56,944 bases of DNA from assembly GCA_018398765.1 (NCBI GenBank), contig JAHBMJ010000103.1:1-56944 (forward strand), given 5' to 3'. Shown here piece after piece: positions 4,811 through 49,950 of the stretch. Source of the stretch: Chromera velia. Lineage: Eukaryota. Each line of letters starts with the position of its first letter. Within the stretch, counting starts at the first letter, position 1. The notes beneath the pieces are model-generated. The model saw nothing but the letters and a program-made list of their open reading frames with translations, ran no database searches and had not been told where the DNA came from. The position numbers and the translations under genes are program-made.

Positions 4811-6682
4811 ATTTTTCAGGAGTCATATCTAGGGTCACATTTATTTCTCCTCGCTCTAAGACTTCCATCTCCGGACACTTCCCTGTCTTCTTTTTTCGAG
4901 TCTTTTCTTCATCAGGCTGTTTTCAAATCTAAATTCAAGAGCTATGGCTCGTTCTGCCCGCTGGACTTTCTTCGATCCTTCCTCCCTTCCTCTCTTCCTT
5001 TCCTTCTCTCACATGCACAAGTCAATGAGAAAATTATCTTCCTTTTCTTCTGCCCCGGACCTTCAAGGAAGAACCGGGCCTCTTCTCTTCTTCTCAGAAA
5101 ACTTCACAGACGGTCACACCGACCCGTGCACGCATTCACAAAGGAGACAAACATTCATTTCTATACAAGAAAGGAAAGGGAAGGGAGGTGAAAGGGCTTC
5201 TCCCTCTTTTTCCAAACGAGACGTCTGTCTGATCGATCGCATCTTTGATCTTGTCGTTGCAAGAGCGCTGTGATCGAAAGGAAACAAGGCCCGGTAGCAG
5301 GAGTGGTTAGAGATCAAATAGAGGTTGTGCAGAGGCGAGGTCAGAGAGAGAGAAAAAAACACTCCAAGCTCTTTCCATCACCACCTGAAGGACAACGTCC
5401 GTCCGACCTCTTCCATACCCCCCCTCCTTCCTTCCTTTCTTCTCTCTCTCTGCTGCCTTCCTTCCCTGTTTCTTCCTCTCACATACATACACACAAAGAA
5501 ACAGGAGCGAAACAAAAAGCAAAGCCCAAAGGAGCGCATACATCAGATTCTTGCGGGAAGGATGAATCAAAGTTGGCGTACTGACATCGAAATTGTGGAA
5601 ATCATTCGAGAAAAAGGGGCAGACGACTGCAGTGTGCCACCCATGGGGGAAGAAAGATGATCATACGAAGACAAGTGGCGAGGCAAAGTTAAGCGTACCG
5701 AGATGAGAAGGAAGCAGAACAAAGAAAGAAAGGTCGAGAAATCCATGCAAAAGCGCCTCAATGTGGACAGAGAAAGCTTTTCTTTCTTCAACGGGAGGAA
5801 TCCTTTCTACGCCAGTGACTCCTCCAAATGTGGAGGAAAAGCCGTGTCTGTCTAAATCAGTAGCCTCGATAATAGGCTCGATTCCCGAACAAATGCACGC
5901 AATGAGTCGAAATAGAAGAAAAAGAAAATACGCAAAGGCCGGAGCCCTACATCCCCCGGGCGGTGAGGCAAAGGCTTTCGACAAAAGAGAGACAAAAGAC
6001 GGACATCAAGAGCAACTCTTTGGTTGCTTTCTTTCTGTTAGCATGCAGCCTTTCCTTCCTCTCTCTCACATGCACGAAGGGACGAACACGTCATTCTATG
6101 CAAGGGAAGCGTCGGCAAGGGAGGGGAAGGGAAGGCGCTTCTCGCTCTTTTCTTTTTCAAAACGTCGGGTCTCCCTTGTACGCTTTCCCGTCTCTCTTCC
6201 TTCTCTCTTCCGCACACACGCGAGTGACACGATCGACCCGAGAAGAGAAGACGGGGCTGGGTTAGATGAGGAGGGAGGGAGATGGGAAACGAATCCTCTG
6301 TCCGTCGCATTCAATCTTTTCTTTGTGCAGTCTCTCTCCTCTCCTCTTCTCTTCTCTCCTCTCACTGAGACCACCCTCCATCCTTCCAGCCCTCCTTCAT
6401 GATCATGATTATTCTGCAACCACCACAAAAGATGGGTCGGCCATTCACTTCTCTCTCTGAGAGCAGAGCCGTCACACACTGTCAGGAGAAATGGAGAAGC
6501 GGATGCGTGTGGAAAAGTGAATGCACATATATGCAGGCCTAGCTGAGTGTGCGTTGAGGGAGGAAAGAAAAGGCATAGGAGGGGAAGTGGAAGGACAATG
6601 TCCGGCCAAGCTTGACCACTCAGGGGGTATGCATACACAAGGAGGTTAGCATAGGCAGGGTGGTGTCATTAAGGTCAGCAGG

Positions 6683-7730
6683 GTGTGGTGGGTCTTCAAG
6701 GGTCCTTTGCGCACGGCCACAGAGCTTGACGAGGTTCCAGCACCATGTAAGCAGGAGAGAGGAGGGAGAGGAAGGGAGAGGAAACAACATTAAGCACGGC
6801 CACTCATTCTTTTCTTCCGCATCTCTCTCTCGTTCGAGTGAGTGTGGAGACGGATGCATCACAGTCGGGCAAAGAGAGCTTTGAAGCATGCATGGGTGGA
6901 AGATCTCTCGATCTGCCTTCAACTTCTTTGATCGATACTTCAAAGCAGAAAAAACAGAAGACTAACCGCACCTGTTCCCCAGGCAGGTCTTTCCAACTTA
7001 AATCCCGACGTATACACGCAAGAGGGTGCACGTGCTCGTATCTATGAAAGCAGCAGGCGCAAAATTATTGAATAAGCGCAAGCCACGAGTCAATTGTCAT
7101 CGACTCATGCCAACTTTCATAGAGCAGATCGAATCAGGGGAGATGAAAAAGAGAACGATACATCACTGACCGCGAAGGTCCCGAACCGAGACGCCGAGAT
7201 TCTACCACCACACCCGCTCGCTCCACGGTAGCGGGCGGAGTGTGCGGTAGCGGGCGGGGTGTGGTGGGTCTTCGAGGGTCCTTTGCGCACGGCGGTAAAA
7301 CGTGACGAGATCCCACCACCATGCAAGCAGGAGAGAGGAGGGAGAGGAAGGGAGGGGAAACAACATTAAGCACGGCCACTCATTCTTTTCTTCCGCATCT
7401 CTCTCTCGTTTGAGTGAGTGTGGAGACGGATGCATCACAGTCGGGCAAAGAGAGCTTTGAATCTCTCGATCTGCCTTCAACTTCTTCGATCGATACTTCA
7501 AAGCAGAAAAAACAGAAGACTAACCGCACCTGTTCCCCAGGCAGGTCTTTCCAACTTAAATCCCGACGTACACACGCAAGAGGGTGCACGTGCTCGTATC
7601 TATGAAAGCAGCAGGCGCAAAATTATTGAATAAGCGCAAGCCACGAGTCAATTGTCATCGACTCATGCCAACTTTCATAGAGCAGATCAAATCGGGGGAG
7701 ATGAAAAAGAGAACGATACATCACTGACCG
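6683..7730. repeat. Direct tandem duplication of about 480 bp (6683-7172 and 7259-7730)
   Basis: Near-identical copies, e.g. tctatgaaagcagcaggcgc at 7041 and 7599. Copy 2 lacks about 17 nt (gcatgcatgggtggaag). Confidence 0.9.
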
Positions 7731-10043: not shown

Positions 10044-11804
10044 TCACGGGCGCTTCTCTCCCCCGTACTTCCGCTTCCCTCTCTTCTCTCGTTTACTCGA
10101 TGACACGAAGGCTTGTGCCCTGGCATCAAAATAAACCCCTCGCATGGGGTTTGTCAATGTAGTCTCGGGCCTGCTTGCACGTTGGGGGGAGGTAGGGGCG
10201 AGGAGATCTAGATTGGGGACAGGGATCGCAGAGAGGTCTAGCAGGGGTACGGGAGTATCATCTTCCGGGTATCTGAACGTATCAACTGAAGGGTTGCGGG
10301 GTTGTTGCTGATGGTCTCTGGTAGCGGTGTGTTGGGGGGGGAAGCGCGGGGGGAGGTCGGAGGCTGTTGCTGCAGGGCCGAATGCATCGGATGAGAGAGA
10401 GCATTGGTGCACAGGGGGGGGGGACACAGGAGGAGGTCGGATGATTTGAGAAGGGGCATGGGCTGGGGGAAAAGGAATAGTGCGGGGATCTGCGAGAGGG
10501 ATTAGCCTTCCCGTCTCACTCTGCAGGGGCACCTGACCGCGTCGGTACAAAGCTGGAGCATTGGGGTGGCCCCCGAAAGCTTGCTCTTCTTCCGTCTGAT
10601 ACGGAGATAGGCCAGCGGATGGGCGTGTGCGGGTGTCACGATAGGCAGCGGGGGTCGTGATCACAGTTGCAAGCACAGGAACGTCTCTGCGATTCGAATC
10701 AGTCCAGCCCCCTGGCGCTGCAGCAGTCGTTGCTGGTGACGTAGAAGGGGGGTACATGTCAACTTGGTCTGTGTTTGCTGGCAATGGAAACAGCACAGGG
10801 ACGGAGGCCTCCAAGTGCGCGGGAGCATCGACATGCTGAGAGACGGGTTCCCTCTGGAGCTCCTCTCGAACCTGCATCGGGGGGTTCTCTCTGGGCTCTC
10901 CCTCGGGCCTCTGCACCACGAGCCTTGTCTTCCTGGTGTGCCGGGGCGCTCCCTCGGGCCTCGCCATGGCCAGTTCACGAGCCTTGTATTCCCCCCACTT
11001 GGCAATCATGGCGCGGTTAATCTTGAAATTCGCGATGGGCTGGACCCTGCAAGCAAGCAAACGAAAAGAGCAAGAGGCACAACACACTTTTCATCTGTGT
11101 AGCGTACATAATTTTACCCATTCATTCACATATTCGCATCCATGTGATCTGAATGATAAAACTTTCTTCGTGCGTGAAGATGGAAAGACGACGTCTCGTA
11201 GAGCACGCACAGAGAGGCATGCAGACAGGCAGAGAGACAGAGAGGCCGACACGGACACGAGGGTCCGGGGAGGGGAGAGGAGAGGAAAGAAAAAGAAGGG
11301 AGAACGATTGCGCAGAGCCAAGCCAAAAACTTTAAGACAAGACTTGTGTCGTGAGGGTTTGTCTTTCTTCTCTGTCCATTCCACTCGTCTGCTACTCACT
11401 CACATGCGCGGGCAGCCTGCCATGCGGACAACCCATGCACACTCTCACCCTGTTCAGTCCTCCCTCCTTCATACAATCAGCAGGGGAATGCAGGGGAATT
11501 TCCTTACTTCCCTGACTTGCCCCTCGTTTGTTTCCTCTCTTTCCATCGCGTAGATGGAACACGGGTAAGGCACCGTACAAAGGATCTCTTGCATCCATAC
11601 AAACCCACAGAGAGATGGAGAGAGACAGAGGGAGACGGAGAGAGACAGAGAGTGACAGAGAGAGACAGAGAGGGACAGAGAGAGACAGAGAGAGACGGAG
11701 AGAGACAGAGAGAGACGGAGAGAGATGGAGAGAGACAGTCTGAGAGAGAGGCAGAGAGAGGCAGAGAGAAACAAAGAGAGACAGAGAAAAACAGAGAGAG
11801 AGAG

Positions 11805-12103: not shown

Positions 12104-13737
12104 GAGAGACAGAGAGAGACAGAGAGGGAGAGAGAGAGACAGAGAGAGACAGAGAGAGACAGAGAGAGACGAAGAGAGACGGAGAGAGACAGAGAGAGCG
12201 GAGACTGACTGCATGCGGATTTCAACGTCGTTCTTCATCCTCTCGCCGATGTCATTGAGGGTCTTCAGCTGGGACCGCCCGGTCTGATGGTCTCTGGCAG
12301 CGGTACGTTGGGGGGGAAAGTGCGGGGGGAGGTCGGAGGCTGTTGCTGCGGGGCCGAATGCGTCGGATGAGAGAGAGCGTTGGTGCACAAGGGGGGGGGA
12401 CACAGGAGGAGGTCGGATGACTTGAGAAGGGGCGTGGGCTGCAGCTGCCGTCTGGCCAGGGTCCTGCATGGGGGGGGGGGAGAAAAAGATAAGAAGGGAA
12501 AGGACAGGAGAGACAATTTCGTGCAATCTTCTGGCTGAAAGTCGGGGATTCGGGAAATGTAGGCGCGATGTGAGTTTATTCCTACACCTTTAGGCAAAGC
12601 TTTCTTTGCAAATCTGTGGCTTGCTTTCATAGATCTGGAAGAAAAAAAAGGGAGGAATGAAACACGTAAGGAGCAAATTGTGGGGAGTTTTTTTCTCTTG
12701 TTTTCTTTTCTTTTTGCTGACCTCCACCGAGGCTCTCCTCTCAGACTGGTTGAACTGATCGTATACGAGGGATCCTCTTCTGTCTCTTAGTTCTCCATTT
12801 CTGTCTCTCTCTTGAGTCGTTCCATCGCCCTCATCAAGGTCCGAGTTTCTCTCGTCTGTCGCCATCGTCCGGGCACGCAGGGGCGTGTCGGCCCCCCTTT
12901 CCAGCAGGTGTCCGGCAGTGAAGCCTCTGTGGAGATCCGTCGAGCCTTGACGCTGAAATTGAGGGGGGAGATCCCGTGCCCTCTGGGTGTGTTGCATGAT
13001 CGGCGGTCCGCCTGTGGGGAGGATCTGCACTCATTCATTCATTCATTTATTTCGATCTGAATGATTGAGTGCATGTGCTTGTCAAGGACGCAGTCAGTGG
13101 ATGCATCGACGGAGAGAGTGCATGGGAACCGCCCTTTGACTTCTGCATGTCTACCCTCTGAAGGCATGGGGAAAGACGGCAGAGGAAAAAGAAACGAGAA
13201 AAAGAAGACAAAGGGCAAAGCAAGGAGGTGGAAGCGCGACCTCGGAAGAAAAGGGAGGAACACTGACCGACATCAAAAGTGACAGGGATCGGGGGCACAG
13301 AAGTGAGAGAGAAATGTCAGATTTGTGCCCATCTGTCTCCAGCATAAAGTCTCTTTTTTCTCAGCCTTGTCCTCTGCTCTGAGTGCCTCTCTGAGTGCTT
13401 TAATGCCATCTTTCGTTCAAAATCCCACTCATTCAGCCTCTCTTTGGGTACCAACCTCATTGTAGAAGTTCTTGCTAGAGTTCTTGTTCACTTTTTCCAG
13501 TACTTCGCGAGACCAGTCAGGAGCACGAAGACCCTCAAAGCACTGATCGTCATGAAAAGCGCCCTGCTGCCCCTTGAAGTCTGCAGATGTTAATGAGTGC
13601 CAAAAGGGGGGGAAAGGGTCGGGGGGGGTTAAGGGGGGGTCTGTGTACTGTGGTTGGTGGAGGTTGAAACGGGGGCTGTTCTCCCCGACAGCAACTTTCC
13701 TCCCCCATCCCTGAGGACTGTTGTCGCCGACTTGCAT
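10044..13737 (-). CDS. Pro-rich protein with a C-terminal broken ApiAP2 domain (possibly pseudogenising); exons 13737-13456, 13024-12722, 12463-12210, 11046-10044
   Basis: Four exons with phase-consistent GT-AG junctions (0, 0, 2). The C-terminus [18 protein letters not shown]...GKRKY is clearly homologous to the AP2 domain at about 14185-14350. Confidence 0.6.
10306..12440. repeat. About 150-bp internal duplication (10306-10460 and 12284-12440) encoding [15 protein letters not shown]...RDHQ
   Basis: Near-identical DNA and peptide in two exons of the same gene. Confidence 0.85.
11609..12204. repeat. Compound (GA)n/AGAGAC/GGAGAGAGAC microsatellite (intronic)
   Basis: Directly visible. Confidence 0.95.
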
Positions 13738-14014: not shown

Positions 14015-14990
<976 letters not shown>

Positions 14991-15169: not shown

Positions 15170-16170
15170 GACCGTCTGCCTCTGTCGATCTATCTGTTTG
15201 CCTTCCTGTTTGAAGGTCTGTCTGCCTCCCTGCTTGCCTGTCTGCCTCTCTCGCCTTTCTGTCTGTCTGCCTGCCTGCCTGTCTGTTCAGTCTGCCTCTT
15301 TCGATGTCTGTCTGTCTTTCTGTCTGCCTGCCTGTCTGTTCAGTCTGCCTCTTTCGATGTCTGTCTGTCTTTCTTTCTGCCTGCCTGTCTGTCTGTTTGT
15401 CTGTCTGTCTGTTCAGTCCGCCTCTTTCGATGCCGGCATGTCTTTCTTCCTGTCTGCCCGCCTGCCGTTCCGTCTGTTCAGTTTGCTTCTTTCGATACCG
15501 GCATGTCTTTCTTCCTATCTGCCTGCTGCCTGTCTGACTGTTCAGTCTGCCTCTTTCGATGTCTGTCTGTCTTTCTGTCTGCCTGCCTGCCTGTCTGTCT
15601 GTTCAGTCCGCCTCTTTCGATGCCGGCATGTCTTTCTTCCTGTCTGCCCGCCTGCCGTTCCGTCTGTTCAGTTTGCTTCTTTCGATACCGGCATGTCTTT
15701 CTTCCTATCTGCCTGCTGCCTGTCTGACTGTTCAGTCTCCCCCTTTCGATGCCTGGATGTCTGTCTTTCTGTCTGCCTGCCTGCCTGCCTGCCTGTCAGT
15801 TTGCCCGTCTGCCTGTCTGTCTGCCTTCCTTTCTCTCTGCCTCCTGTCTGCCTTCCCGTCTCCCTGTCTTCCTGCCTTCCTTTCTCTCTGCCTGCCCGTC
15901 TGCCTGCCTGTCTGTCTGCCTCCCTTCCCGTCTGCCTTCCTTTCTCTCTGCCTCCTGTGTGCCTGCCCGTCTGCCTGTCTGTCTGCGTTCCTTTCTCTCT
16001 GCCTCCTGTGTGCCTGCCCGTCTGCCTGTCTGTCTGCGTTCCTTTCTCTCTGCCTCCTGTGTGCCTGCCCGTCTGCCTGTCTGTTTGCCTTCCTTTCTCT
16101 CTGTCTGTCTGTCTGCCTGTCTGTCTGCCTTCCTTTCTCTCTGCCTCCTGTGTGCCTGCCCGTCTGCCTG
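15170..16170. repeat. Degenerate CTGC/CTGT satellite with higher-order units (190-bp and about 50-bp periods)
   Basis: A block beginning gttcagtccgcctctttcgatgccggcatg occurs at 15411 and 15601; about 50-bp units from about 15940 to 16170. Confidence 0.9.
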
Positions 16171-24918: not shown

Positions 24919-27900
24919 GGGGGGGGGGGGGGCCGGGGGGGGAGTGGCAACTCAACCCTGAGATCAAGGCAAACTTACTCCCTTTTTTCTCTGAATTTCC
25001 TGACCGAATAGATGAGAAGAGAGCAATGTCGTTTGCCTCCTGTTTCGTCTCTGTGAAGACAATGCAGCGTCCATGGAGACCTGCGTAGACCGTCAGGGCG
25101 TCCCCTAGAGTCTTCGCTCTCTCTGCGTAGGGAATCTGCAGCAAGAAGCAAACAAGACATCATGAGCGAAGCATCAATCAACCGCCAAGGAAAGCGTTGC
25201 CACCCGACCCTCTTTTTGCAATTTGCTTAATCGACGTCTCTCTGTTTGCTCACCTTCATTGCAAGGTGCTTGATCGAGGAGGATCCTCCCTTCGCGTTCT
25301 GTTCCCCAACCACGTCAATCGTCTTCATGTTGTCCTCCTTCATGAACCTGCATACACATGCAGGCATTCACACATGCACACACATGTATGCACATACGCG
25401 TAGGGGAGGTGAGGGGAAGACAGAGTCAGAGAGGCATCACAACAGAGAAGCAAACAGACACGCAGAGAGAAAGAGACAGGATAGAGAGCCACCCTCATAA
25501 GCAAGCAACCCACCGACCGAGAAGCGAGACCCTCAACCCAGTCAGGCAGGGTCGCGGTGAAGAGAAGAGTCTGGAACTCCTTTGCCCCCTTCTCGCCCTC
25601 CTCTTCCCCCTTCTCCTTCTCCCTTTCCTCCTGGATCCATCCGAAAATTTCCTCCACGTCCTCCTTGAAGCCCATGTCCAGCATCTGGTCGGCCTCGTCC
25701 AAAATCAACGCCCTCAACTTGCCAAACCTGCAGGGAGGCAGACACACACATACACAGTGAGGGAGCCATACGTAGTGAGAGTTGCCGGGAGATGATTCCT
25801 TTGCGTCCCCCCTGCAGACACGTACGTCCATACAGGGAATCGGAAGGAAAAACACCGAATTAAGCGCACTGTGCGAGGAAGAGTTGTTTTTGAATGACGG
25901 ATGTTTGTGTGTGTAAGTCAGGAGAGCATGCAAGGTTTCCAACAAAGGCAACACAGGAAGCGCAGGCGAGATCGGTCTGTCGTACTGACTTGAGGACTCC
26001 CTGCTCCCTCAAGTCCTTCACTCTCCCTGGAGTTCCCACAACGATGTCGATGCCGTCTCTGAGGGCCTGGCACTGCGGGCCCATGGCCGCTCCTCCGTAG
26101 ATGCAGAGCTGCTTGAAGCGGTCGACTGCGATGAGGTCAAATTCCTTGGAGACCTGCAAAGATCAGATGCCAGGCGAAAAGGAGAGAAAACGGTAGAAAC
26201 GGACGAAGATGGACGGACAGACAGACAGATGGACAGCCTGCAGAGAAAATGCCAGGAGAGAAAGAAAATAGGAAAGCGAAGAAAAGGAAGGGAAGGGAAA
26301 CGAACGCGCACGCACACGCACACACACCCCCACGCACACACTCTCACACGCACGGAAAGGGAGGGGGGGTGAAAGCCAGAGACGTCGACAGCCGCACCCC
26401 CCATCCAATCCCAGCCAGCCCAACCTACTCACCCACCCACCCACCTGCATTGCCAGCTCTCTTGTCGGCAGAAGGACAAGAACCTGAGGAGCCCTCCCCC
26501 TGAACGACGGAGGAGACACAGACAGGGAGAGAGAGGGGCAGGGAGGCAATCACAGGAATGAATCCGCAGATGGGCAGACCGATAAGAAAGCAAGTTAGGA
26601 GGCACGACGACAGAGCGGAAGGACGTTTTATTGCATGGTCCAAGAACACACGCACAATCCCTGCCTGCACCCCTTCCCCTCAAGGGCCGCCTCCATTCTT
26701 TCTCTTCCACGCTCTCCCTTCTCTTCCTCTCTGTTCTGTCCATCGCCCCTTCCCATCCCGGTCCCACACTCGACTGCCCACAGAGAGAGAGCTTGCATGA
26801 AAATTTCCCCATGTAACGACCATGCATCCCGACATGCACTAACCTCTTCCCCGTCTTGAACCTTCCTTTCGCGATCATCCGTTCCGCCAGAGGGAGAGCG
26901 AAGGACAGCGTCTGCAGAGGAGCAGGAAACCATGCAGAAGAGACGAGGCAAGGCGGGCAGAAGAAAGAAACATAAATGACGTGGAGGTACCTAAGTAAGG
27001 GAAAGTGGAAGGAAGGCACGCAGACATCCAAAAGAAGCGTGCAAAGGGGACAAAATGTACAAAGAAGGAGGGGTTCAGGAAAGAAAGCGTGACCGAGGCA
27101 CACCAATGACATCAGAGACAGGAAGCCACGAAGAGCCATGCCTCCGTCCCCGGAACAACTCCCGCCGCCCTCCGGTTCCTTCCCCCGCAGCCCCCCTTCC
27201 TCTACTTTCCTGCCGTCCCTTCAGATTGGACGCTCTCCTTAAAATTCCCTTCATCCCTCCCTCCAATCCTGTTCAGACCTCCTTTCTCGCACAGACCTTT
27301 CCAGTTCCTGCAAACAGACAGACCAGGAAACACACACAGGTTGAACAAAATACAGAATCAGCGAGTAGCTGTTGTTCGTGAACTCCAAATGGGACACCCG
27401 TCTACGTTCGGGATACACAAACGCATCTCTCATTCGTATCCAGACACCAGTTCGCCGCCCCTTTCACCCCATAAACACCGGATTTCCATTGAATCCCCTT
27501 CACTTGCACACCTGACCTGTACGGGCCCTCCCGATGACGTCATACTTGTCGTAGATGAGGTCAAAGGTCTTCTCCTGAATGGGGAAAAACCGCTCGATCC
27601 CTCTATCTGCAATCAGCAACACAGTGTGACGAATGCGAAGTGGCCCCTAGAATGAAAAAGCCGACAGTACACCCGGAGCAGCCGAGGCACTCACCTTTAA
27701 GCGCCTCCAGAGTTTCCGCGCTCACCTGCATATGACAGATAACAGGGAGAGAGTCAGAGACGCCTCTTTTCAGAGTGCCATTCAGAAGGGCAACACCGAT
27801 CCACCTACCCGGTAGTCTGCAATGAGGGGTCCGGCGCTGTCCTTCTTCTCCCCACTTGTTTCAGGCGCTTTCTTGGACTTCTTAATGGGGGAGCCTGCAG

Positions 27901-38588: not shown

Positions 38589-39695
38589 TCATTGTGTGAG
38601 ACAACAACACACATCTGCTCCTTGCATCCCCCCTCCTCCTCCACCCCCTCCACCCCCACCCCCACCAGCACCCACGGGAAAGGGGTTACCTGCACTAGAC
38701 ACAGACGACACCATATGCGTCAAACGGGATCCTTCCGGGGCCCGTAGTACCACCTGACACTCCTGTACAAATCCAATCTTTTCATAAAACTCCGTTTTGT
38801 CCTCCGCAAACAAACTGACAAGTTCAACATCCTCACGCTCAAGCTCAGCGCGTGCAAGCGCCACGACTGCCTGCCCCCCAATTCCCTTCCGTCTCCTTTC
38901 ACTCGGTGTGAAGACGGGGGCTATTCTCGAAACTCCCGCAACTCGAGATGCAATTCCTACCATGCAGGCAGGCGGCTCTCCATACAGAAACACCCTGTCC
39001 CCCTTGCGTAATCGAAATCTCGCCTGATTCTCGTTTGGAAGCATGTGGCACTCCCTCGCAAAAGCAGACCACCACTTGAGCACGAGGTCCAAATCTGCAG
39101 AAGGATCTGCAGGACGCAAAGCCCACTCAGGGGGGGCCTGGCCTGTCTCGGCCAGGGTGCTATGGTGTGTTTTGCCCTCCTCTCTTCGGCGCTGTTCACA
39201 AACATTTGCAAGTTCGGGGTTGAACCTCATCACGCTCATTGAACGCGTAGTAACGAACCCTTGACGGTTTCCTGCCGCGTATATCCTTTCAAAGGCAGCA
39301 CAACATTCCTGGGGCCCTTGAAGCCGCAGCATCCCCTTCCTGAACTTGCGGTTTCTCGTGCTTGCCTCGATCTCGAGGTGTCGCATGTGGAGGGCTATAC
39401 TTGCTGCTGCAGCGGGAGTGGTCCCACTGGCAACCAGGAGGTCGTGGTGCGCCTGCGGAGAGAAGATTGCCGCGCCCTCCACGTTCTCTTCCGTCTCCTC
39501 TTGACCCCTGAAGACGGCAATGGAGATGAAGGAGTCAGTGTCCCTCCGTGAGCTTTCAGCTTCCTCAACCACCAACCCAATCACCAGAGCGTTACTGGCA
39601 GGATGTCCCAGGAGAAATCTGGTAGACAAGCGCAGGAACTCCGCAAGGTTCGGGATCTCAACCGCCCGACAAGAGACCTCGGATGTGACAGACAT
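38589..39695 (-). CDS. GNAT-family N-acetyltransferase (bacterial-like); 3' end uncertain, probable donor at 38690
   Basis: RIAPVFTPSERRRKGIG acetyl-CoA-binding motif A, LVSLFAE and FYEKIGF motif B, in one long exon. Confidence 0.85.
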   Translation of the reverse strand: MSVTSEVSCRAVEIPNLAEFLRLSTRFLLGHPASNALVIGLVVEEAESSRRDTDSFISIAVFRGQEETEENVEGAAIFSPQAHHDLLVASGTTPAAAASIALHMRHLEIEASTRNRKFRKGMLRLQGPQECCAAFERIYAAGNRQGFVTTRSMSVMRFNPELANVCEQRRREEGKTHHSTLAETGQAPPEWALRPADPSADLDLVLKWWSAFARECHMLPNENQARFRLRKGDRVFLYGEPPACMVGIASRVAGVSRIAPVFTPSERRRKGIGGQAVVALARAELEREDVELVSLFAEDKTEFYEKIGFVQECQVVLRAPEGSRLTHMVSSVSSAGNPFPVGAGGGGGGGGGGGGGMQGADVCCCLTQ

Positions 39696-42702: not shown

Positions 42703-42827
42703 TAGATTTCAGGGAGGAAGCTAGGCAGTGGATCTTTTTCCGGTGCCTGTTGTGCTGTTCTGAGTGCTTCCATTTCATAGGCGTACCTTGTAAGTTCTTC
42801 CTGGCATCCATCGGTCCTCTTTCACCT

Positions 42828-43035
42828 CATCTTTGCTTTTGGTTTCCGTCTGCCTTCATCTTTGCTTCTGGTTTCCGTCTGCCTTCATCTTTGCTTCTGG
42901 TTTCCGTCTGCCTTCATCTTTGCTTTTGGTTTCCGTCTGCCTTCATCTTTGCTTCTGGTTTCCGTCTGCCTTCATCTTTGCTTCTGGTTTCCGTCTGCCT
43001 TCATCTTTGCTTTTGGTTTCCGTCTGCCTTCATCT
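42828..43035. repeat. 29-bp minisatellite, about 7 copies (catctttgcttYtggtttccgtctgcctt)
   Basis: Directly visible head-to-tail copies with no spacers. Confidence 0.95.
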
Positions 43036-43715: not shown

Positions 43716-45249
43716 TAGCCAGCTAGTTTGTTGGTATGTGCACTTCTGGCCTGAACCCGCATAGATCCTCGAGACGCAGATGGATGCACTTTGTGAAGAT
43801 CGGTTCCCATGTTTTGTGCGTGCACATGGAGACGGCAGACGGAGAAGGTAGCTGACAGAGTGAACAGACTGAAGCAAGCGAATTAGTTTTTTGTTTTATT
43901 CTTCTGTAGGCTTGGTGCTTCTCGTGAATTTTCACAGAGGGCTGTCTCTCTTTGCATTCTTTCTCGGGTACGTGAGTGACACAGAGCGGCTCCCCCTCCG
44001 CCTGCTCTGAGGGAACGGTGAACTGGACTTATTTATAAGAGAAGGAAAAGAAGGGCGTTAGTTGTATGTCCATGAACCTGTTCTTCTCTCTTTGCCTTTC
44101 TCTTTTTGGTGTTCGAACTGCTCCTTGCAGGTCCGCCTTGTCAGGAAGAGACTCCCATGGCGGAAAGTTGAGCGAGGACCGATCGGCTGGGGTTCAGAGA
44201 TAGGAAATGCACCCACAGAGGGAGGGAAAAGGGGAGAGCAGGAGAGAGAGTCTCCAGTTGACTCTGGCTTTCTATTTCGCGTTCCTCTGTGCATTTCTGT
44301 TCTGTGTTTGTCTGTTTTCATCCGTCTCTTCCATTTGTTTATTTTTAAAACGACGGGGTGAGTGAAGGGAAATTCAAGTCTTTAGACGTTGCATGGTTAC
44401 TCCGTGGGCGAGTCGGTCGGTGGGTGGGTTCTCGACTGGCATTCTCACTCCCTCCCTTAAGTCCGAGGCGATGATGATGCAATGAAAGTTGTCTGCATGC
44501 ATGCCCAAAAAAGAGAACAAAACACGGAAACAAGAGAGCAGAGAAGCATGCAAAGCCGAAGGGGGAAGGGTGCAGAAAAGATCACTTGCTCGAATTCCAC
44601 TCGCGGACGAATTCGTTCCCGCGTATTTGTATTCTCTCTTCCTTTTCCATAGAGCCCTCACTCGCTTCCACCCTATGCCACTTCTCTCTCACGTACACAG
44701 TGAGAGCAAGAAAATAAGGGGGGTTGGTCCACCTCCGATAGACACTGCATGCCCCCCATTTTTATTCCTCTAACACACAGCTCCTCATGTCGAAACACAA
44801 GCGTCTTCTTTCACTAGACACACATGCAGTCTCTGTCACCCAAACTCCCGGGCAGTCCTGCCTGCTTGTCTCTCGACTGCACTTGCAGCATGCGACTGCC
44901 GGTCAGACACCGTTGAAGTGGAAGAAGAAAGAAGAACCTGCAGGAAGCGGGTCGAAAAAAGGTGTACATGATGCAATGACATGCATGCATGCAAGTCAGC
45001 CTGAGGGAAGACTGCATGAGAGGCCCGCCAGCCTTACGTTGCAGGCTTGTGCAGGCCCATCAGCAGCTCTCTTTGTTGCAAACTTCTTTCTCTGCCGATA
45101 GCGCAAAGGCGTCATTGTTTAATTAATTCAAGGCTGTTCTTCCATGCAGCGTGTAATTCAATCAGCATACTATGGCCTTTTTCCAGCATGCACCGGCCTG
45201 CTGTCGTTTTCTTGCTTCTTTCAAGAAGAAGAACATTCATTACTATTCA

Positions 45250-45520
45250 TATACAGTGTATGATACACTAGTTCATGCAGTACTACATGCACTTAAAAAC
45301 TTTATAAAATGCTGAATATAAAATATAAAAGTTAGAGATAGAAATAAATAGAAAGCTAAATAAAGCTATTCAATTTAATTTAATATCTAGTTTAATATAC
45401 ATAAAAATGATTTAATGATACTTTACATATAAATAAATTTAATAAGATATAGCTCATCCTCAACTACTCAACATATCTTTTCTCACTTTCACATTTTATA
45501 AACACGCGGCAGATATAACC
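45250..45520. other. Short AT-rich island upstream of the HNH gene
   Basis: Composition shift. Confidence 0.6.
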
Positions 45521-46068
45521 GTCACGGCTATTTTTCTGCACCTGTGCGGGACGGATCCCGACCGGCGACTTTGGTGCTACAAGTAGCCACAAAAGCCGAG
45601 CACGGGACTGTATTTGCAGTCGGATTAACTTGGATCTTAATTTCCGTCGCTTGAACGCACGGCTTCACTCCGCAGCCTAGGCTTTGCCTTCTCATGCAAC
45701 AGCACATGCAACACGCACTGTGCAACATGCAAATCAGATGAGGTGTTGTGGGGACCGTTACGAGTCTGCGACAGAATTGCGACGTACGCTAAACATGTAC
45801 AGCTCAATTTCCATACACGATGTCGAGACATGTGAGGCATTGTGAGCAATGTGAGGCAGACTTCAGTTCTTTACACATCTACTTATTCCACACAGGATCG
45901 ATTCGCGACTTGCTTGAGGTCATATATATAGACGTTCTTAATTGAGTTGGGAGTCCGACCTTTCCGAATCAGGTGTATATCATGTCTGAACTTGAAGCGA
46001 TTCAAGTGTTGCAGAGAAGATTTTCCGTGCCTGTCTGTTGACCTGCATCGACACACCGTGCTTTCAAG

Positions 46069-48675
46069 ATGAGACGCATTGCCACGGCGCTCTCTCGTCG
46101 TGCTTCAGGCCATTCTCTTCCATCTGCAGTGACTGTCTCCTCCCTTCTCCAGAGAACTTCTGCCTACTCCTCAGAACAGAATGAAAGGCAGAGAGGGATG
46201 CCGTCCATCATGAATGGAAGATGGGGGGCTCGGGCAACGACGAGGCAGACCAGTTGTCACAGTCTTGCCCCAGAAATCCGGAGACCCTCCATCACAAGAC
46301 ACCTCGAATGTTCCACAAACAGAGTGCCTCTGAAGACGCGGGGCGAAGGAGGACTGCGGAACCAGTCTCCTCCTCTCCCAGACTCCCGTCTGAGCCCTTT
46401 CGCTCCTCTGTTCAGCTACAGGGCTGCTGAGGGGAGGAGCCTTCACGTACCCCGTATCCAATCCGTCTACGCACTCCTTCATGCTCACAGGCAGGTCAGA
46501 ACGGCAAGTGCCGTCTCTGCTGCCTCTGTTCAACTAGGTGTTGTTACAGACGGGGCGCGGACATCCCTGCAGGGGGAGAAAAATGGGGGATGTTTTCATT
46601 TTTCGACTCTGCCTGTATCCCAGATTCAAAGGGTGGAGACAGGTGGGGACGCAGCGCTCGACAAGAGCTCTGCTTCTTGCTCTGATGCAGGCACAAAGCC
46701 CTCCAGCTGTGCTTCTCAGAAAGTTGTTCGTCGGCAGAACCCAATCTGCCCACATGGGAGGCGAAGATACCTCTGTAAAGATTGTGGGGGGAAGGGAATA
46801 TGCGAGCATGGGCGTCAGCGCAATCACTGCAAGGACTGCGGGAGGACGCAAATTTGCGTGCACGGACTTCAGCGCTCTTTTTGTAAAGAATGCAGAGGAA
46901 GCGGCATTTGCGAGCACAGACGCCGACGTCATAATTGCAGAGACTGTGGGGGGATCTCCATTTGCGTCCACGGGCGTCTGAAGTACACCTGCGTCGAGTG
47001 CGGAGGAGGTGGGGTTTGCGAACACGGTCGTCAACGCACTCAGTGCAAAGAGTGCGGAGGTGGTAGCATCTGCGAGCACGGACGCCAGCGAAGCTCCTGT
47101 GCAGAATGTCAGAAAGACAATCCTGCATTTGTAGAAAGGCGCGAGAGGCAAAAGAAGAGGTACAAGGATGACTGTGTGTATCGAGTAGCACAAACAATGA
47201 GGTCCTCGGTATGGAGATGCCTAAATGTTCTTCGGAAAGGCAAACTCTTGTGCAACATCAAACGCACCCACGAGTACCTCGGTTGTTCGTTTCCCGAACT
47301 CAAAGCCCACCTCGAGAAGGACGACTTCCACGGCAACCCCGGAATGTCGTGGGAGAATTATGGGAGTTTGTGGCACGTTGACCATATTGTGCCCTTGATG
47401 TATCGGGGAGCAGACGGACAGAAACCTGACATAGACATTCTGATCTCCCGCTTACATTTTTCTAATCTTCAACCAATGTGGTCGGAGGAGAATCTCAAGA
47501 AGGGAAATAGGTTCGTTGGCAGGCTGCAATCTCTCCCCCTTTCCCAACGTCCAGAACAAAGAAACCATAGTCCTCGTGAAAGCGAGCAAGCAACTGTCAG
47601 AAGCATAGAGAATTCTGCCCTCTGGATTCGTAAAAACATAACTTCAGGGGAAAGACGCTCTAAATGCCTTCATTCACTCTCTCTGGCAGGTTCTACTGTC
47701 GCTTTTAAATGCGACCCTGACGTTCCAGCTTACGAACGTCGCATGGTTGGGGTTTTTGGCCGTCAACGGTTTGGGTGGGCATTGGGGACAAGGTCGCTCT
47801 GTTCTCTACTGAAAATACAGAGCAGATATTTGTCTGTCTTTCTCCCCAGAGCCGAGGGGGGTGTTTCTTCTTCCAAGAGTCTTCTCAAGTCAATCAGTCA
47901 GTTTCAGTCGGATGACATTCCGGAAATTGGAGGGGCAAGAGAAGGACCGACCCCCACAAGGGAGAGCAGAGAGAGCCTTGAGAAAGAGGAAATTGGTCTC
48001 GGCTGGCAGATTCCTCCACGAGCGGTCAGGGTCAGAAGTCTTTGTCCCCACGGAAGGCAGCGATACGACTGCAAAGAATGCGGGGGGAAGGGTATTTGTA
48101 CGCATAACCGTATCAGGAGATTCTGCAAGGAGTGCAGAGGGTCCCAAATCTGCGAGCATGGTCGCACTCGGAGGCTGTGTAAGCAATGCGGTGGAAAGGG
48201 AATTTGTGAGCACGGCCGTCAGCGCAGCCACTGTCGAGACTGTCAAGGGAGTCAGATTTGTGAACACGACAGGCACAGGAGTGAGTGTGCAGAATGCCAA
48301 AAGGACAATCCTGCCTTTGCAGCCCGGAGGCAGCGGCAGAAAGAGCTCAAACGAATGCGTTACTCTATCGACCCCGTTTTTCGTCTCAGCCAAGTCACCC
48401 GCGTGAGCGTGAGGAAACGTCTGGCAGCTGTCAGAGACAGCAAAACCCCTCCATCTCTTCGTCAACGCACGCAGGAGTACCTCGGTTGTTTGTTCCCCGA
48501 TCTCAAAGCCCACCTCGAGAAGGACGACTTCCATGGTAACCCTGGGATGTCGTGGAAAAATTACGGGAGTTTGTGGCACGTTGATCATATTGTGCCTATT
48601 ATGTACGTCGGGTCTGACAGTCAGAGACCAGACACAGAGGTCCAAATTGCTCGTTTCCATTTTTCAAACCTTTAA
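46069..48675 (+). CDS. Intronless protein with two [CxHxxxxxxCxxC repeat array + HNH endonuclease] modules and a mitochondrial-type presequence; second HNH interrupted by TAA (homologous frame continues to 48747)
   Basis: 7 repeats from 46747 and 5 from 48043. HNH: YLGC.F.ELK.HLE...GMSW.NYG..WHVDHIVP...HFSNLQPMWSEENLKKGN. Confidence 0.88.
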   Translation: MRRIATALSRRASGHSLPSAVTVSSLLQRTSAYSSEQNERQRGMPSIMNGRWGARATTRQTSCHSLAPEIRRPSITRHLECSTNRVPLKTRGEGGLRNQSPPLPDSRLSPFAPLFSYRAAEGRSLHVPRIQSVYALLHAHRQVRTASAVSAASVQLGVVTDGARTSLQGEKNGGCFHFSTLPVSQIQRVETGGDAALDKSSASCSDAGTKPSSCASQKVVRRQNPICPHGRRRYLCKDCGGKGICEHGRQRNHCKDCGRTQICVHGLQRSFCKECRGSGICEHRRRRHNCRDCGGISICVHGRLKYTCVECGGGGVCEHGRQRTQCKECGGGSICEHGRQRSSCAECQKDNPAFVERRERQKKRYKDDCVYRVAQTMRSSVWRCLNVLRKGKLLCNIKRTHEYLGCSFPELKAHLEKDDFHGNPGMSWENYGSLWHVDHIVPLMYRGADGQKPDIDILISRLHFSNLQPMWSEENLKKGNRFVGRLQSLPLSQRPEQRNHSPRESEQATVRSIENSALWIRKNITSGERRSKCLHSLSLAGSTVAFKCDPDVPAYERRMVGVFGRQRFGWALGTRSLCSLLKIQSRYLSVFLPRAEGGVSSSKSLLKSISQFQSDDIPEIGGAREGPTPTRESRESLEKEEIGLGWQIPPRAVRVRSLCPHGRQRYDCKECGGKGICTHNRIRRFCKECRGSQICEHGRTRRLCKQCGGKGICEHGRQRSHCRDCQGSQICEHDRHRSECAECQKDNPAFAARRQRQKELKRMRYSIDPVFRLSQVTRVSVRKRLAAVRDSKTPPSLRQRTQEYLGCLFPDLKAHLEKDDFHGNPGMSWKNYGSLWHVDHIVPIMYVGSDSQRPDTEVQIARFHFSNL

Positions 48676-48779
48676 CCAATGTGGTCGGAGGAGAATCGGC
48701 GAAAAGGAAATCGATATATCGGGAAAACACCCAAATTTTCAGTCTGAAGCCTCTCTTCAAGCAGCGATTATCCTCTGGT

Positions 48780-49950
48780 TGATTTTTGCTTGGTATATTA
48801 ATATTGCTTATCTCACTGTGCCTATGATATTCATATAGTAGTAATTTCATACGAGCCGCCTCCCTAGCCGCCTCCTCCAAATTTAGGCTCCAATTTTTTT
48901 CATTATCAAATTTCATATAGAGAGCCTTGCTTTCTCTCAACTAACTATGGCCGTAAACGCGGCTTCTTTTAATGGTCAGCATTGAAAAAAAGGGAAAACC
49001 TAGAACAATAACATCTCTTCCGGGCCCTGTCTTCTTTGAGTCTTCATAGCGTAAAAGCTTGCATGCGTGTGATCAGTCGATCAGTTCAGATTTGAAGCCG
49101 TCTTCAAAAGTTATAGCTTTCAGTGTTCAGGGCTTCCAATTGGGCTTCCACTAAAACACGGTTCCCTGTCTCCCCAAAAAGCTAGTCGGAAAGGCTAAAA
49201 GCTGGCAAAAAAACACCCAACAGCTTCCACCTCCATGCAATCGATTCAATTTATATTTAAAAAAACAATGAAAAAGAAGGAAAAGAAAGCCGTTGTCGAG
49301 GCTGTTATAGAAGTCTGGATGTAACCCTCAAATCTAATCTCAAATCCGTTTAGATGTGTAAATCTATAGAGCCTGATTAAACCTTAAATCAAATCAAGTC
49401 AAATCAAATCAAATCCTATCAAATCAAATCTGGTCACTACATATACTGGGCCGTCCAGATACATCTACTAGTACATCTAAATAGTAGATATATACATAGT
49501 TTAATAATTATTATAGCACTCGATCTATTTTTTCAAGTTTGACCCGGCCCCATTTGACTCAAATGGGTGTATAATGATTTGATATCAGTTCTTAGTATGT
49601 CCGCCTCACTCTTGTTCTTCCACCTTTACGCAACATTGCACTCAGAAATCTATATAGTCAGAAATTCAAAAATTTTATTTATGCTAATTTATCAATCTAT
49701 GATATTCAATAGAAAATACAGTATATCTATAGCAGTACATCTAATTTTACGTCTATATATGATGAAAAATATCATTGATAAATGATTGAAAAAAAATACA
49801 AGTTATTTGTACACTCCCCAGGCTGTGACTAGTTGTAACACGATACCATGCAGGCTCGATGTGCATGTTTTCACTAGATGTTTTCAAGCCTAAAATTTTT
49901 GATCACTGAAAAAAAACTTCAAAATTTTTCTTCAATGACTTCCACTCCAG
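48780..49950. other. AT/TpA-rich island with an (AAATC)n tract at about 49330-49430
   Basis: Composition shift and short pentamer repeat. Confidence 0.65.

What the first reader, a model, noticed from the sequence alone, without database searches (positions are those of the whole stretch)
46069..48747. Natural repeat-array nuclease: tandem [Cys/His repeat array + HNH] x2 in one intronless ORF
Seen: module 1 has 7 x 18-aa C-x-H-x6-C-x2-C repeats, a basic helix and an HNH domain (WHVDHIVP...HFSNLQPMWSEEN); module 2 has 5 repeats and a closely similar HNH. The gene has no introns and is flanked by AT-rich islands. Established: the LGC..EL..HLE..GMSW.NYG.WHxDH..P..NLQP.W..EN type of HNH occurs in giant DNA viruses and phages. 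Inference: a virus-derived, modular ZFN/TALEN-like enzyme in which array length and content set the target; two HNH heads could pair nicks into a double-strand break. It could be a selfish homing-type element or a domesticated defence or organelle nuclease.
Basis: partly seen in the sequence, partly recalled or inferred. Interest (0 to 1): 0.85.

Follow-up and report, generated by a model that had tools for sequence, protein, structure and literature searches.

The report
Viral zinc-repeat nuclease captured by alga
An algal gene holds two copies of a zinc-repeat array plus HNH nuclease, the second cut short by a stop codon, and likely came from mobile giant-virus and virophage nuclease genes whose repeats change fast at a few positions that likely choose the DNA target.

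Summary
The 7- and 5-repeat arrays and two HNH domains are real, but the frame ends at an in-frame TAA (48673-48675) inside HNH2, before its predicted metal ligand, so only head 1 is intact. The host is Chromera-like. 18 Chromera velia gene models share this HNH, 12 show signs of tandem modules, and all copies form one clade grouped with array-bearing HNHs of giant viruses and virophages. In viruses the gene is single-module and mobile: it is absent or present between 99%-identical genomes, flanked by direct repeats and, twice, by a duplicated 3' end of the neighbouring gene. The same array is fused to several nuclease types. Repeat positions 6, 8, 9 and 17 diverge far faster than synonymous sites, and same-locus alleles carry 4-13 different repeats. 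That is a PRDM9/TALE-like signature and indirect support for array-set specificity. No target or activity was shown. Verdict: a probably decaying host copy of an apparently undescribed, possibly programmable family of homing-type nucleases.

The parts
46069..48675 (+). Open reading frame, 868 aa, ending at a premature TAA inside the second HNH domain
46069..46746 (+). 226-aa N-terminal region without detectable homologues among Chromera paralogues; the first 30 aa are Arg/Ser/Ala-rich with no acidic residue (mitochondrial-presequence-like, weak)
46747..47109 (+). Array 1: seven 18-aa C-x-H-x6-C-x2-C repeats (predicted one zinc each); residues 6/8/9 = RYL QNH QSF RHN LYT QTQ QSS
47110..47523 (+). 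Basic helices plus HNH domain 1, intact: D438, H439 (47383), N466 (47464), N475 (47491)
47524..48042 (+). 173-codon open linker, not conserved among paralogues
48043..48297 (+). Array 2: five repeats; residues 6/8/9 = QYD IRF TRL QSH HSE
48298..48747 (+). Basic helices plus HNH domain 2, broken by TAA at 48673-48675; D839, H840 and N867 precede the stop, the helix Asn codon (48694) lies after it
45151..45550 (.). AT-rich intergenic island upstream (one of 8 in the window; not element-specific)
49251..49950 (.). AT-rich intergenic island downstream, with short TCAAA repeats

Best explanation
This is a chromerid algal gene with two tandem zinc-repeat-array-plus-HNH modules, likely captured once from a giant virus or virophage and amplified, in which each array likely reads DNA through a few variable residues per repeat and the HNH is predicted to cut it; the second HNH is broken by a stop codon, so this copy is likely decaying. 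Mechanism, step by step. (1, shown) Each 18-aa repeat keeps invariant C, H, C, C, while positions 6, 8, 9 and 17 vary. (2, predicted) One zinc per repeat gives a rigid, basic rod that lies along DNA, with the variable residues facing bases. (3, predicted from motif and fold) The D-H..N..N HNH nicks or cuts next to the bound site. (4, partly shown in viruses) Repair from the gene-bearing genome copies the gene into new sites, which leaves direct repeats or a duplicated 3' end of the neighbouring gene, as in intronless homing. (5, inferred) Targets erode by conversion to resistant alleles, which selects for new arrays and explains fast change at the variable positions. (6, shown and inferred) In the alga one lineage spread to about 19 or more loci, often as tandem modules. 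Its HNH stayed under purifying selection while it spread, and at this locus head 2 is now dead.
For: HNH: PHROG endonuclease VII E 8e-9. AF2 model pLDDT 87 with strand-strand-helix at the motif. Foldseek PDB rows are mostly HNH/beta-beta-alpha nucleases though none reaches E 0.001. BFVD hits include a Pithovirus protein (E 2e-23) and a Bodo saltans virus intron-encoded endonuclease (E 2e-7). D, N, N are invariant and H is at least 90% conserved in 135 homologues. Viral origin: array+HNH genes lie beside NCLDV capsid genes (L003) and on virophage contigs (L095). Chromera and window HNHs form one clade (99/99) grouped with mostly array-bearing viral/metagenomic HNHs (97/92) (same). The array pattern hits only 6 stretches among 185,579 prokaryote genomes, all MAGs. 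Neighbours in the window are host genes (DEAD helicase, AP2, GNAT). Mobility: L088 and L153 are 99% identical and L153 alone has the array+HNH gene, followed by a second copy of the TFIIS 3' end with 21 synonymous and 3 non-synonymous codon changes. A 90%-identical element sits at another gene, with a similar duplicate and a different 13-repeat array (L156). Flanking direct repeats occur at 8 of 76 array ORFs versus 2 of 650 other ORFs. Variable residues: among repeat pairs with no two-fold-site differences, held-out four-fold sites differ 0.18 but second bases of codons 6 and 9 differ 0.55-0.57. Codon 6 exceeds synonymous divergence in 95 of 98 arrays and codon 9 in 95 of 97. Homogenisation exceeds the local codon-bias expectation in 53 of 58 arrays. 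Same-locus alleles with 95-99% identical flanks carry 13, 4, 10 and 8 repeats with different residues. Selection in the host: HNH1 vs HNH2 dN 0.12, dS 1.04.
Against: No DNA target, binding or cleavage was shown, and no repeat-to-base code could be derived. The window's own repeats are not homogenised (mean pS 0.89; 0.53 and 0.62 by another measure), so the diversifying signature comes from viruses only. No flanking repeat or duplicated gene end surrounds this locus. The flanking-repeat signal comes mostly from one HNH clade (L153 group) that I enriched on purpose. That clade is not the Chromera sister group, and the 8 hits collapse to about 5-6 sites. Only 4 of 57 array loci showed a flanking duplication in the wider test, against 8 of 70 controls. 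23 of 25 paralogous HNH copies are intact, which fits function as well as recent selfish spread. The TAA may be an assembly error (no reads available). Many viral arrays have no nuclease or a degenerate one (H to E). The tree has few columns (118) and no true outgroup.
Confidence: 0.55

Rival explanations
1. Domesticated host nuclease: the alga keeps the family for its own use, for example anti-virus defence with many specificities or an organelle-targeted nuclease. The tandem two-array form works as a single-chain pair of heads, and the TAA is either an assembly error or leaves a one-head enzyme with a second DNA-binding arm.
For: dN/dS about 0.12 between modules; 23 of 25 paralogous HNH copies intact. 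The N-terminus (226 codons) and linker (173 codons) are open, against 3 and 5 of 20,000 shuffles. Tandem modules in 12 of 18 Chromera models versus 0 of 128 non-Chromera array+HNH sequences. Modules 1 and 2 are not sisters, and module 2 pairs with module 2 of another model. Presequence-like N-terminus, 4 of 590 ATG contexts as extreme.
Against: Linker and N-terminus have no significant match among paralogues (best E 0.31). Long stop-free frames are common in this genome (57 of 3567 are 170 codons or more). The N-terminal test used thresholds chosen after seeing the sequence. No close homologue outside Chromera velia appeared among named eukaryote hits. No expression data.
Confidence: 0.22
2. 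The array is a sequence-non-specific basic DNA clamp or spacer. Its variable positions are merely unconstrained, repeat number drifts by slippage, and any specificity comes from the helices and the HNH domain.
For: Repeats are strongly basic. The array joins unrelated nucleases freely and also occurs without one. Same-locus alleles tolerate wholly different arrays, 2 to 13 repeats, which is unexpected for a nuclease with one fixed homing site. Non-array members of the same HNH family are far more numerous (30,433 clusters at E<=0.001).
Against: Unconstrained sites should diverge at the synonymous rate, but codons 6 and 9 diverge about three times more than held-out four-fold sites in recently duplicated repeats, and 0.42-0.69 versus 0-0.24 between same-locus alleles. 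The residues used there (Q, R, S, T, N, K, Y, E) are typical base readers (own knowledge).
Confidence: 0.15
3. Not one protein: two adjacent single-module genes or pseudogenes of a tandem cluster (built by repeated insertion, like yeast WHO clusters), joined by a frame that is open by chance or interrupted by unseen introns.
For: All 128 non-Chromera array+HNH sequences are single-module. The linker is not conserved and differs in length among models. Candidate acceptor sites exist in the N-terminus and linker. Many Chromera models read the arrays in the wrong frame.
Against: 399 non-module codons are open in the same frame while each of the other five frames has 3-11 stops per region. The linker has one Met (residue 559) and no AT-rich gap. 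No GTRAG donor lies upstream of 48179.
Confidence: 0.08

Closest known systems
Free-standing and intron-encoded HNH homing endonucleases of phages and giant viruses (I-HmuI type, recalled; Bodo saltans virus intron endonucleases, PMC5871332, passages read; intronless Seg2/HNH of PLVs, 10.1101/2022.07.28.501842, passages read)
   Same: D-H..N..N HNH core; structural match to a BsV intron-encoded endonuclease; sporadic presence between close viral genomes; modular joining of DNA-binding and nuclease domains.
   Different: The DNA-binding part is a long, length-variable tandem array N-terminal to the nuclease, with hypervariable positions. No intron or intein here. The host copy is nuclear and tandem.
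Yeast WHO elements / HO (10.1101/2020.01.20.913210, abstract and passages read)
   Same: [quoted passage not shown]
   Different: WHO is a LAGLIDADG-intein fusion with one main target (FBA1). Here the nuclease is HNH (or PD-(D/E)xK), sites differ, and no duplicated gene end flanks the algal locus.
PRDM9 zinc-finger arrays and TAL effectors (recalled); engineered ZFN/TALEN (recalled)
   Same: Repeats homogenised in DNA except at a few hypervariable residues; alleles differ in repeat number; array joined to a nuclease.
   Different: Different repeat (18 aa, C-H-C-C); natural fusion to its own nuclease; no code or DNA contact demonstrated.
T4 endonuclease VII family / phrog_1035; 'Prasinovirus endonuclease VII' (a JGI name on one hit); 'DnaJ central domain protein' (automatic name of viral relatives)
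   Same: Sequence match to phrog_1035 over the HNH region (E 8e-9); the CxxCxG part recalls the DnaJ zinc motif.
   Different: No evidence of junction resolution or dimerisation. No J domain; the C-x-H half and the 18-aa period are not DnaJ features (own knowledge).
MIGE elements of Mimiviridae (10.1101/299784, first half read)
   Same: [quoted passage not shown]
   Different: No MIGE sequence was compared. As I recall, MIGE proteins carry C2H2-type fingers, like other ORFs next to L004 and L156, not this array.
STAR, MOON, pTERF DNA-binding tandem repeat proteins (PMC11417379, passages read)
   Same: Natural tandem repeats with variable residues that affect DNA preference.
   Different: The passages seen describe no zinc repeat; the main text has no occurrence of HNH, CxxC or Chromera. 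Supplements were not read and may list this repeat.

Membership tests
His-Me finger (HNH) nucleases | Catalytic His at the end of strand 1, preceded by an acidic ligand (PMC5714182, passages) | tested here: met
   D438-H439 and D839-H840; strand at model residues 214-218
His-Me finger (HNH) nucleases | Loop Asn and metal-binding Asn/His in the core helix (module 1) | tested here: met
   N466 and N475, invariant in 135 homologues; helix 251-257 of the model
His-Me finger (HNH) nucleases | Metal-binding helix present (module 2) | tested here: not met
   TAA 48673-48675 precedes strand 2 and the helix; an assembly error is not excluded
His-Me finger (HNH) nucleases | Beta-beta-alpha fold by structure comparison with solved proteins | tested here: inconclusive
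   PDB rows mostly HNH but best E 0.62; VIA-align Z 4.8 CAD, 4.6 PacI, below an unrelated row at 5.1; strong matches only to predicted viral HNHs
His-Me finger (HNH) nucleases | Metal-dependent nuclease activity | not testable with these tools
   needs an assay
Homing endonuclease genes | Optional presence at a locus between close relatives (viral members) | tested here: met
   L153 vs L088 (99% identical); L095, L100 and L155 at different slots
Homing endonuclease genes | Optional presence or insertion marks at this algal locus | tested here: inconclusive
   No flanking repeats; no second chromerid genome available
Homing endonuclease genes | Cuts the element-free allele and spares its own | not testable with these tools
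   target unknown
WHO-like elements | Gene lies between a host gene and a duplicate of its 3' end | tested here: inconclusive
   Met for viral L153/L228/L229 and L156; not seen at the algal locus or at most viral loci
WHO-like elements | LAGLIDADG intein-derived nuclease | tested here: not met
   No such Pfam hit; the nuclease is HNH
Programmable repeat arrays (TALE/PRDM9-like) | Homogenised repeats with hypervariable positions and allelic length variation | tested here: met
   In viral relatives; the window's repeats vary at the same positions but are not homogenised
Programmable repeat arrays (TALE/PRDM9-like) | Repeat-to-base code; swapping repeats changes the target | not testable with these tools
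   no targets known
Giant endogenous viral element or integrated virophage | Viral hallmark genes beside the locus | tested here: not met
   35 window ORFs scanned: DEAD, AP2, GNAT only; 35 of the 79 listed ORFs were given
MIGE | Sequence membership in the described MIGE ORF family | not tested
   no MIGE sequence at hand

The most novel reading that the evidence does not exclude
The 18-aa C-H-C-C repeat is a new programmable DNA-reading unit: positions 6, 8, 9 (and 17) specify bases by a simple code. Giant viruses and virophages use it as a natural ZFN/TALEN platform with interchangeable HNH and PD-(D/E)xK heads, locked in a PRDM9-like race with their own targets. Chromera has fused two arrays and two heads into single-chain paired nucleases.
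Probability: 0.3. Interest if true: 0.92.

Novelty: new variant of a known kind. Interest (0 to 1): 0.72.

Why it matters
If the variable residues form a code, an 18-aa repeat would be about half the size of a TALE repeat and a new natural class of modular DNA readers already joined to nucleases, with thousands of natural variants to learn from. It would also give a testable model for why nuclease genes turn over so fast in giant viruses and virophages, and a case of intronless homing with 3'-end duplication outside yeast. For the alga, it is a clear case of a viral selfish gene amplified in a eukaryote with a host-specific tandem architecture. This particular allele, with one dead head, is a poorer test object than its intact paralogues or the viral genes.

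Tried and rejected
No whole genome is held for the window and no sequencing runs were obtained, so copy number rests on protein gene models, and the TAA, splicing and expression are unverified. Pfam, NCBIfam and PDB sequence searches name neither the repeat nor this HNH. The first viral scan with exact 8-mers found no relative. No fold of the array alone was obtained, and the model of module 1 tested mainly residues 130-264, so whether the repeat has a known fold is open. The second Atlas query did not complete. AT islands as element borders: rejected (8 in the window, no similarity in self-BLAST). Terminal inverted or direct repeats around the ORF: none of note. Recent local duplication of module 1: rejected (dS about 1; not sisters). 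DnaJ zinc finger: rejected (no J domain). Codon bias alone as the cause of repeat similarity in viruses: rejected for most arrays. Adenine-specific diversity-generating retroelement mutagenesis: considered unlikely, because synonymous adenines of the framework stay unchanged in the alleles printed (by eye, no formal test). A repeat-to-base code was not attempted, as too few element-target pairs exist. The wider flanking-duplication test was not enriched over controls (4 of 57 vs 8 of 70); only the position-specific test was. Literature: 10 full-text searches found no description of this repeat-nuclease family. The library lacks most subscription papers and no supplements were read. Earlier findings of this scan: nothing.
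Full report
Observation. The frame from ATG 46069 runs 868 codons to TAA 48673-48675. It holds seven (46747-47109) and five (48043-48297) copies of C-x-H-x6-C-x2-C at 54-nt spacing, the only 12 matches of that pattern in six frames of the window. Each array is followed by basic helices and an HNH region; the two HNH regions are 81% identical over 248 nt. By the definition in PMC5714182 (passages read), the helix Asn is the main metal ligand. It is present in module 1 (N475) and lost from module 2. The AT-rich flanks are 2 of 8 such islands.

Host. No genome was held. The best named homologues of the HNH are all Chromera velia gene models, at 60-83% identity. Window neighbours with Pfam hits are DEAD helicase, AP2 and GNAT pieces (35 of the 79 listed ORFs scanned). 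I infer a chromerid, most likely C. velia. The exact ORF is not in the protein collection. Eighteen models carry 25 HNH copies, 23 with D-H..N..N intact and none with a stop at this position. Seven have two full HNHs, one has the start of a second, and four have array sequence (in or out of frame) after an HNH, so 12 of 18 look tandem. Many models read the array in the wrong frame, so they are unreliable for linkers and starts. In-frame arrays have 4, 5, 7 and 9 repeats with different variable residues.

Nuclease. The helix+HNH region matches phrog_1035, endonuclease VII, at E 8e-9; Pfam and NCBIfam give nothing significant. The AF2 model of module 1 has mean pLDDT 87 with a regular strand-turn-helix unit per repeat and strand, strand, helix at the HNH motif. 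Foldseek against PDB gives mostly HNH-type rows but none at E<=0.001; VIA-align gives only Z 4-5 (CAD, PacI). Predicted viral structures match strongly, among them a Pithovirus 'DnaJ central domain protein' (E 2e-23) and a Bodo saltans virus intron-encoded endonuclease (E 2e-7). BsV introns are described as carrying HNH and GIY-YIG homing endonucleases (PMC5871332, passages). The HNH family is huge (30,433 clusters at E<=0.001) and common in phages without the array (92 records). Between the two modules dN is 0.12 and dS 1.04 over 84 codons: purifying selection acted for most of their history.

Origin. Module 1 finds 2820 proteins at E<=0.001. Of the 120 listed, regular expressions class 42 as array+HNH, 44 as array+PD-(D/E)xK-like and 30 as array+other; 4 are Chromera models (the patterns under-call a few). 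In viral contigs the array is fused, by inspection, to this HNH, to a PD-(D/E)xK-like domain, to an H-to-E variant HNH and to three other HNH/EndoVII-like heads, or to nothing. Contexts are NCLDV (beside two major capsid genes in L003) and virophage (Sputnik-type capsid in L095). The array pattern hits about 230 viral stretches (estimate) but only 6 stretches in 185,579 prokaryote genomes, all MAGs, of which one is a single chance-like repeat. In trees of the HNH alone, Chromera and window copies are one clade (99 in FastTree, 230 rows; 99/99 in IQ-TREE, 68 chosen rows), grouped with mostly array-bearing environmental HNHs (98; 97/92). Columns are few, the root is a midpoint, and six truncated Chromera HNH copies were not in the trees. 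Modules 1 and 2 are not sisters. None of 128 non-Chromera array+HNH sequences has two HNH motifs; double HNHs without arrays exist (P0307, P0314).

Mobility in viruses. L088 and L153 are 99% identical. L153 alone has the array+HNH gene behind TFIIS, and L088 alone has a 2.7-kb insert with a DDE transposase and an array+PD-(D/E)xK gene, bounded by a roughly 27-bp duplication. In L153 and L229 the gene is followed by a second copy of the TFIIS 3' end with 21 synonymous and 3 non-synonymous changes; in L228 the sequenced part of that copy has no synonymous change. A 90%-identical element with the same ends lies at another gene in L156, again with a duplicated 3' end, and has 13 repeats instead of 6. 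Four different upstream contexts were seen for these ends. This resembles yeast WHO elements (10.1101/2020.01.20.913210, passages). Direct repeats starting at the stop codon and about 75-100 nt before the ATG occur at 8 of 76 array ORFs and 2 of 650 others (Fisher p 4e-7, 2e-5 after collapsing). Most belong to the clade I enriched, which is not the Chromera sister group. A broader duplication test was not enriched (4 of 57 vs 8 of 70). Virophage relatives in the sister group occupy three different slots (L095, L100, L155). The algal locus shows no such marks.

Does the array set the target? Over 1734 distinct units, C1, H3, C10, C13 (fixed by the search pattern) and G15 are constant; positions 6, 8, 9 and 17 are the most variable. 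In 58 viral arrays with enough local codon data, synonymous mismatch between repeats is below the codon-bias expectation in 53 and below half of it in 21. Among 488 repeat pairs identical at two-fold sites, held-out four-fold sites differ 0.18, while second bases of codons 6 and 9 differ 0.55 and 0.57, near the between-array ceiling of 0.65-0.68. Per array, codon 6 exceeds synonymous divergence in 95 of 98 and codon 9 in 95 of 97, in all nuclease types. That comparison includes two-fold sites, and arrays are not independent. Alleles at one locus, with flanks 95-99% identical and nuclease synonymous divergence 0.04-0.11, have 13, 4, 10 and 8 repeats; even the closest units differ at 0.42-0.69 of variable second bases versus 0-0.24 of framework synonymous sites. 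This is the pattern recalled for PRDM9 and TALE arrays and is hard to get from neutral slippage. It is not a code, and no target was identified. The window's repeats vary at the same positions but are old and not homogenised.

Reading. Most likely (0.55): a viral homing-type array nuclease, captured once and amplified in the alga, array-directed in specificity, with this copy half dead. Rivals: domestication (0.22; open linker and N-terminus, intact paralogues, weak presequence hint), a non-specific array (0.15), and two separate genes (0.08). Shown: anatomy, stop, paralogue family, viral kinship, viral mobility, accelerated change at a few positions. Inferred: zinc binding, DNA reading, cleavage, homing, decay.

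Novelty. Ten full-text searches found no description of this repeat-nuclease family; databases call it hypothetical or 'DnaJ central domain'. Papers seen: PMC11417379, PMC5871332, PMC12220804, PMC10222054, PMC5714182, PMC12085832, 10.1101/2022.07.28.501842 and 10.1101/2020.01.20.913210 as passages; 10.1101/299784 first half; the rest as search listings only. No supplements were read, and subscription papers are missing. I file it as a new variant of free-standing homing-type HNH nucleases. Interest 0.72 rests on the family rather than on this allele.

Noticed in passing
L088:4393-7120: Insert with a DDE_3 (IS630/Tc1-like) transposase and an array+PD-(D/E)xK gene, absent from the 99%-identical L153 and bounded by a roughly 27-bp duplication; the same transposase family lies beside array genes in L092 and L149.
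   Followed up: partly
L095:5673-6296 and L100:4074-4895: The same slot in related virophages (behind the A32-like ATPase gene) holds array genes with two different nuclease heads; the 5' part of the genes is alignable, suggesting head swapping.
   Followed up: partly
L102, L115, L129, L144; L106, L110, L111, L113, L150: Prasinovirus-like loci with array genes at fixed positions whose HNH has Glu in place of the catalytic His, with 6-11 repeats; possibly inactive or domesticated binders.
   Followed up: no
L156:2098-3264: Array built from a four-repeat block copied three times, a higher-order duplication.
   Followed up: no
L149:1302-2863; L179: Array+PD-(D/E)xK genes split by a frameshift inside the array.
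   Followed up: no
L312:2716-4692: 24-repeat array + PD-(D/E)xK gene on a 54% GC contig binned as a bacterium, probably eukaryotic or viral; longest array seen.
   Followed up: no
P0006, P0008, P0012, P0037, P0058, P0064, P0065, P0078-P0080: Proteins ending right after an 8-10 repeat array, with a basic NLS-like stretch before it and no nuclease: possible eukaryotic DNA-binding derivatives.
   Followed up: no
P0300: Chromera model Cvel_10217 joins an out-of-frame array plus HNH to an ORC winged-helix protein, probably a gene-model fusion or an insertion at the 5' end of that gene.
   Followed up: no
window 6678-7730; 15181-16170; 10308-10465 and 12284-12441; 42827-43035: Local duplications and tandem repeats (77-98% identical) unrelated to the finding.
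   Followed up: no
window 14340-14987, 593-1267, 25343-25831, 38592-39695: Host ORF pieces with AP2, DEAD-box helicase (twice) and GNAT domains.
   Followed up: no
window 49378-49447: Short TCAAA repeat tract in the downstream AT island.
   Followed up: no
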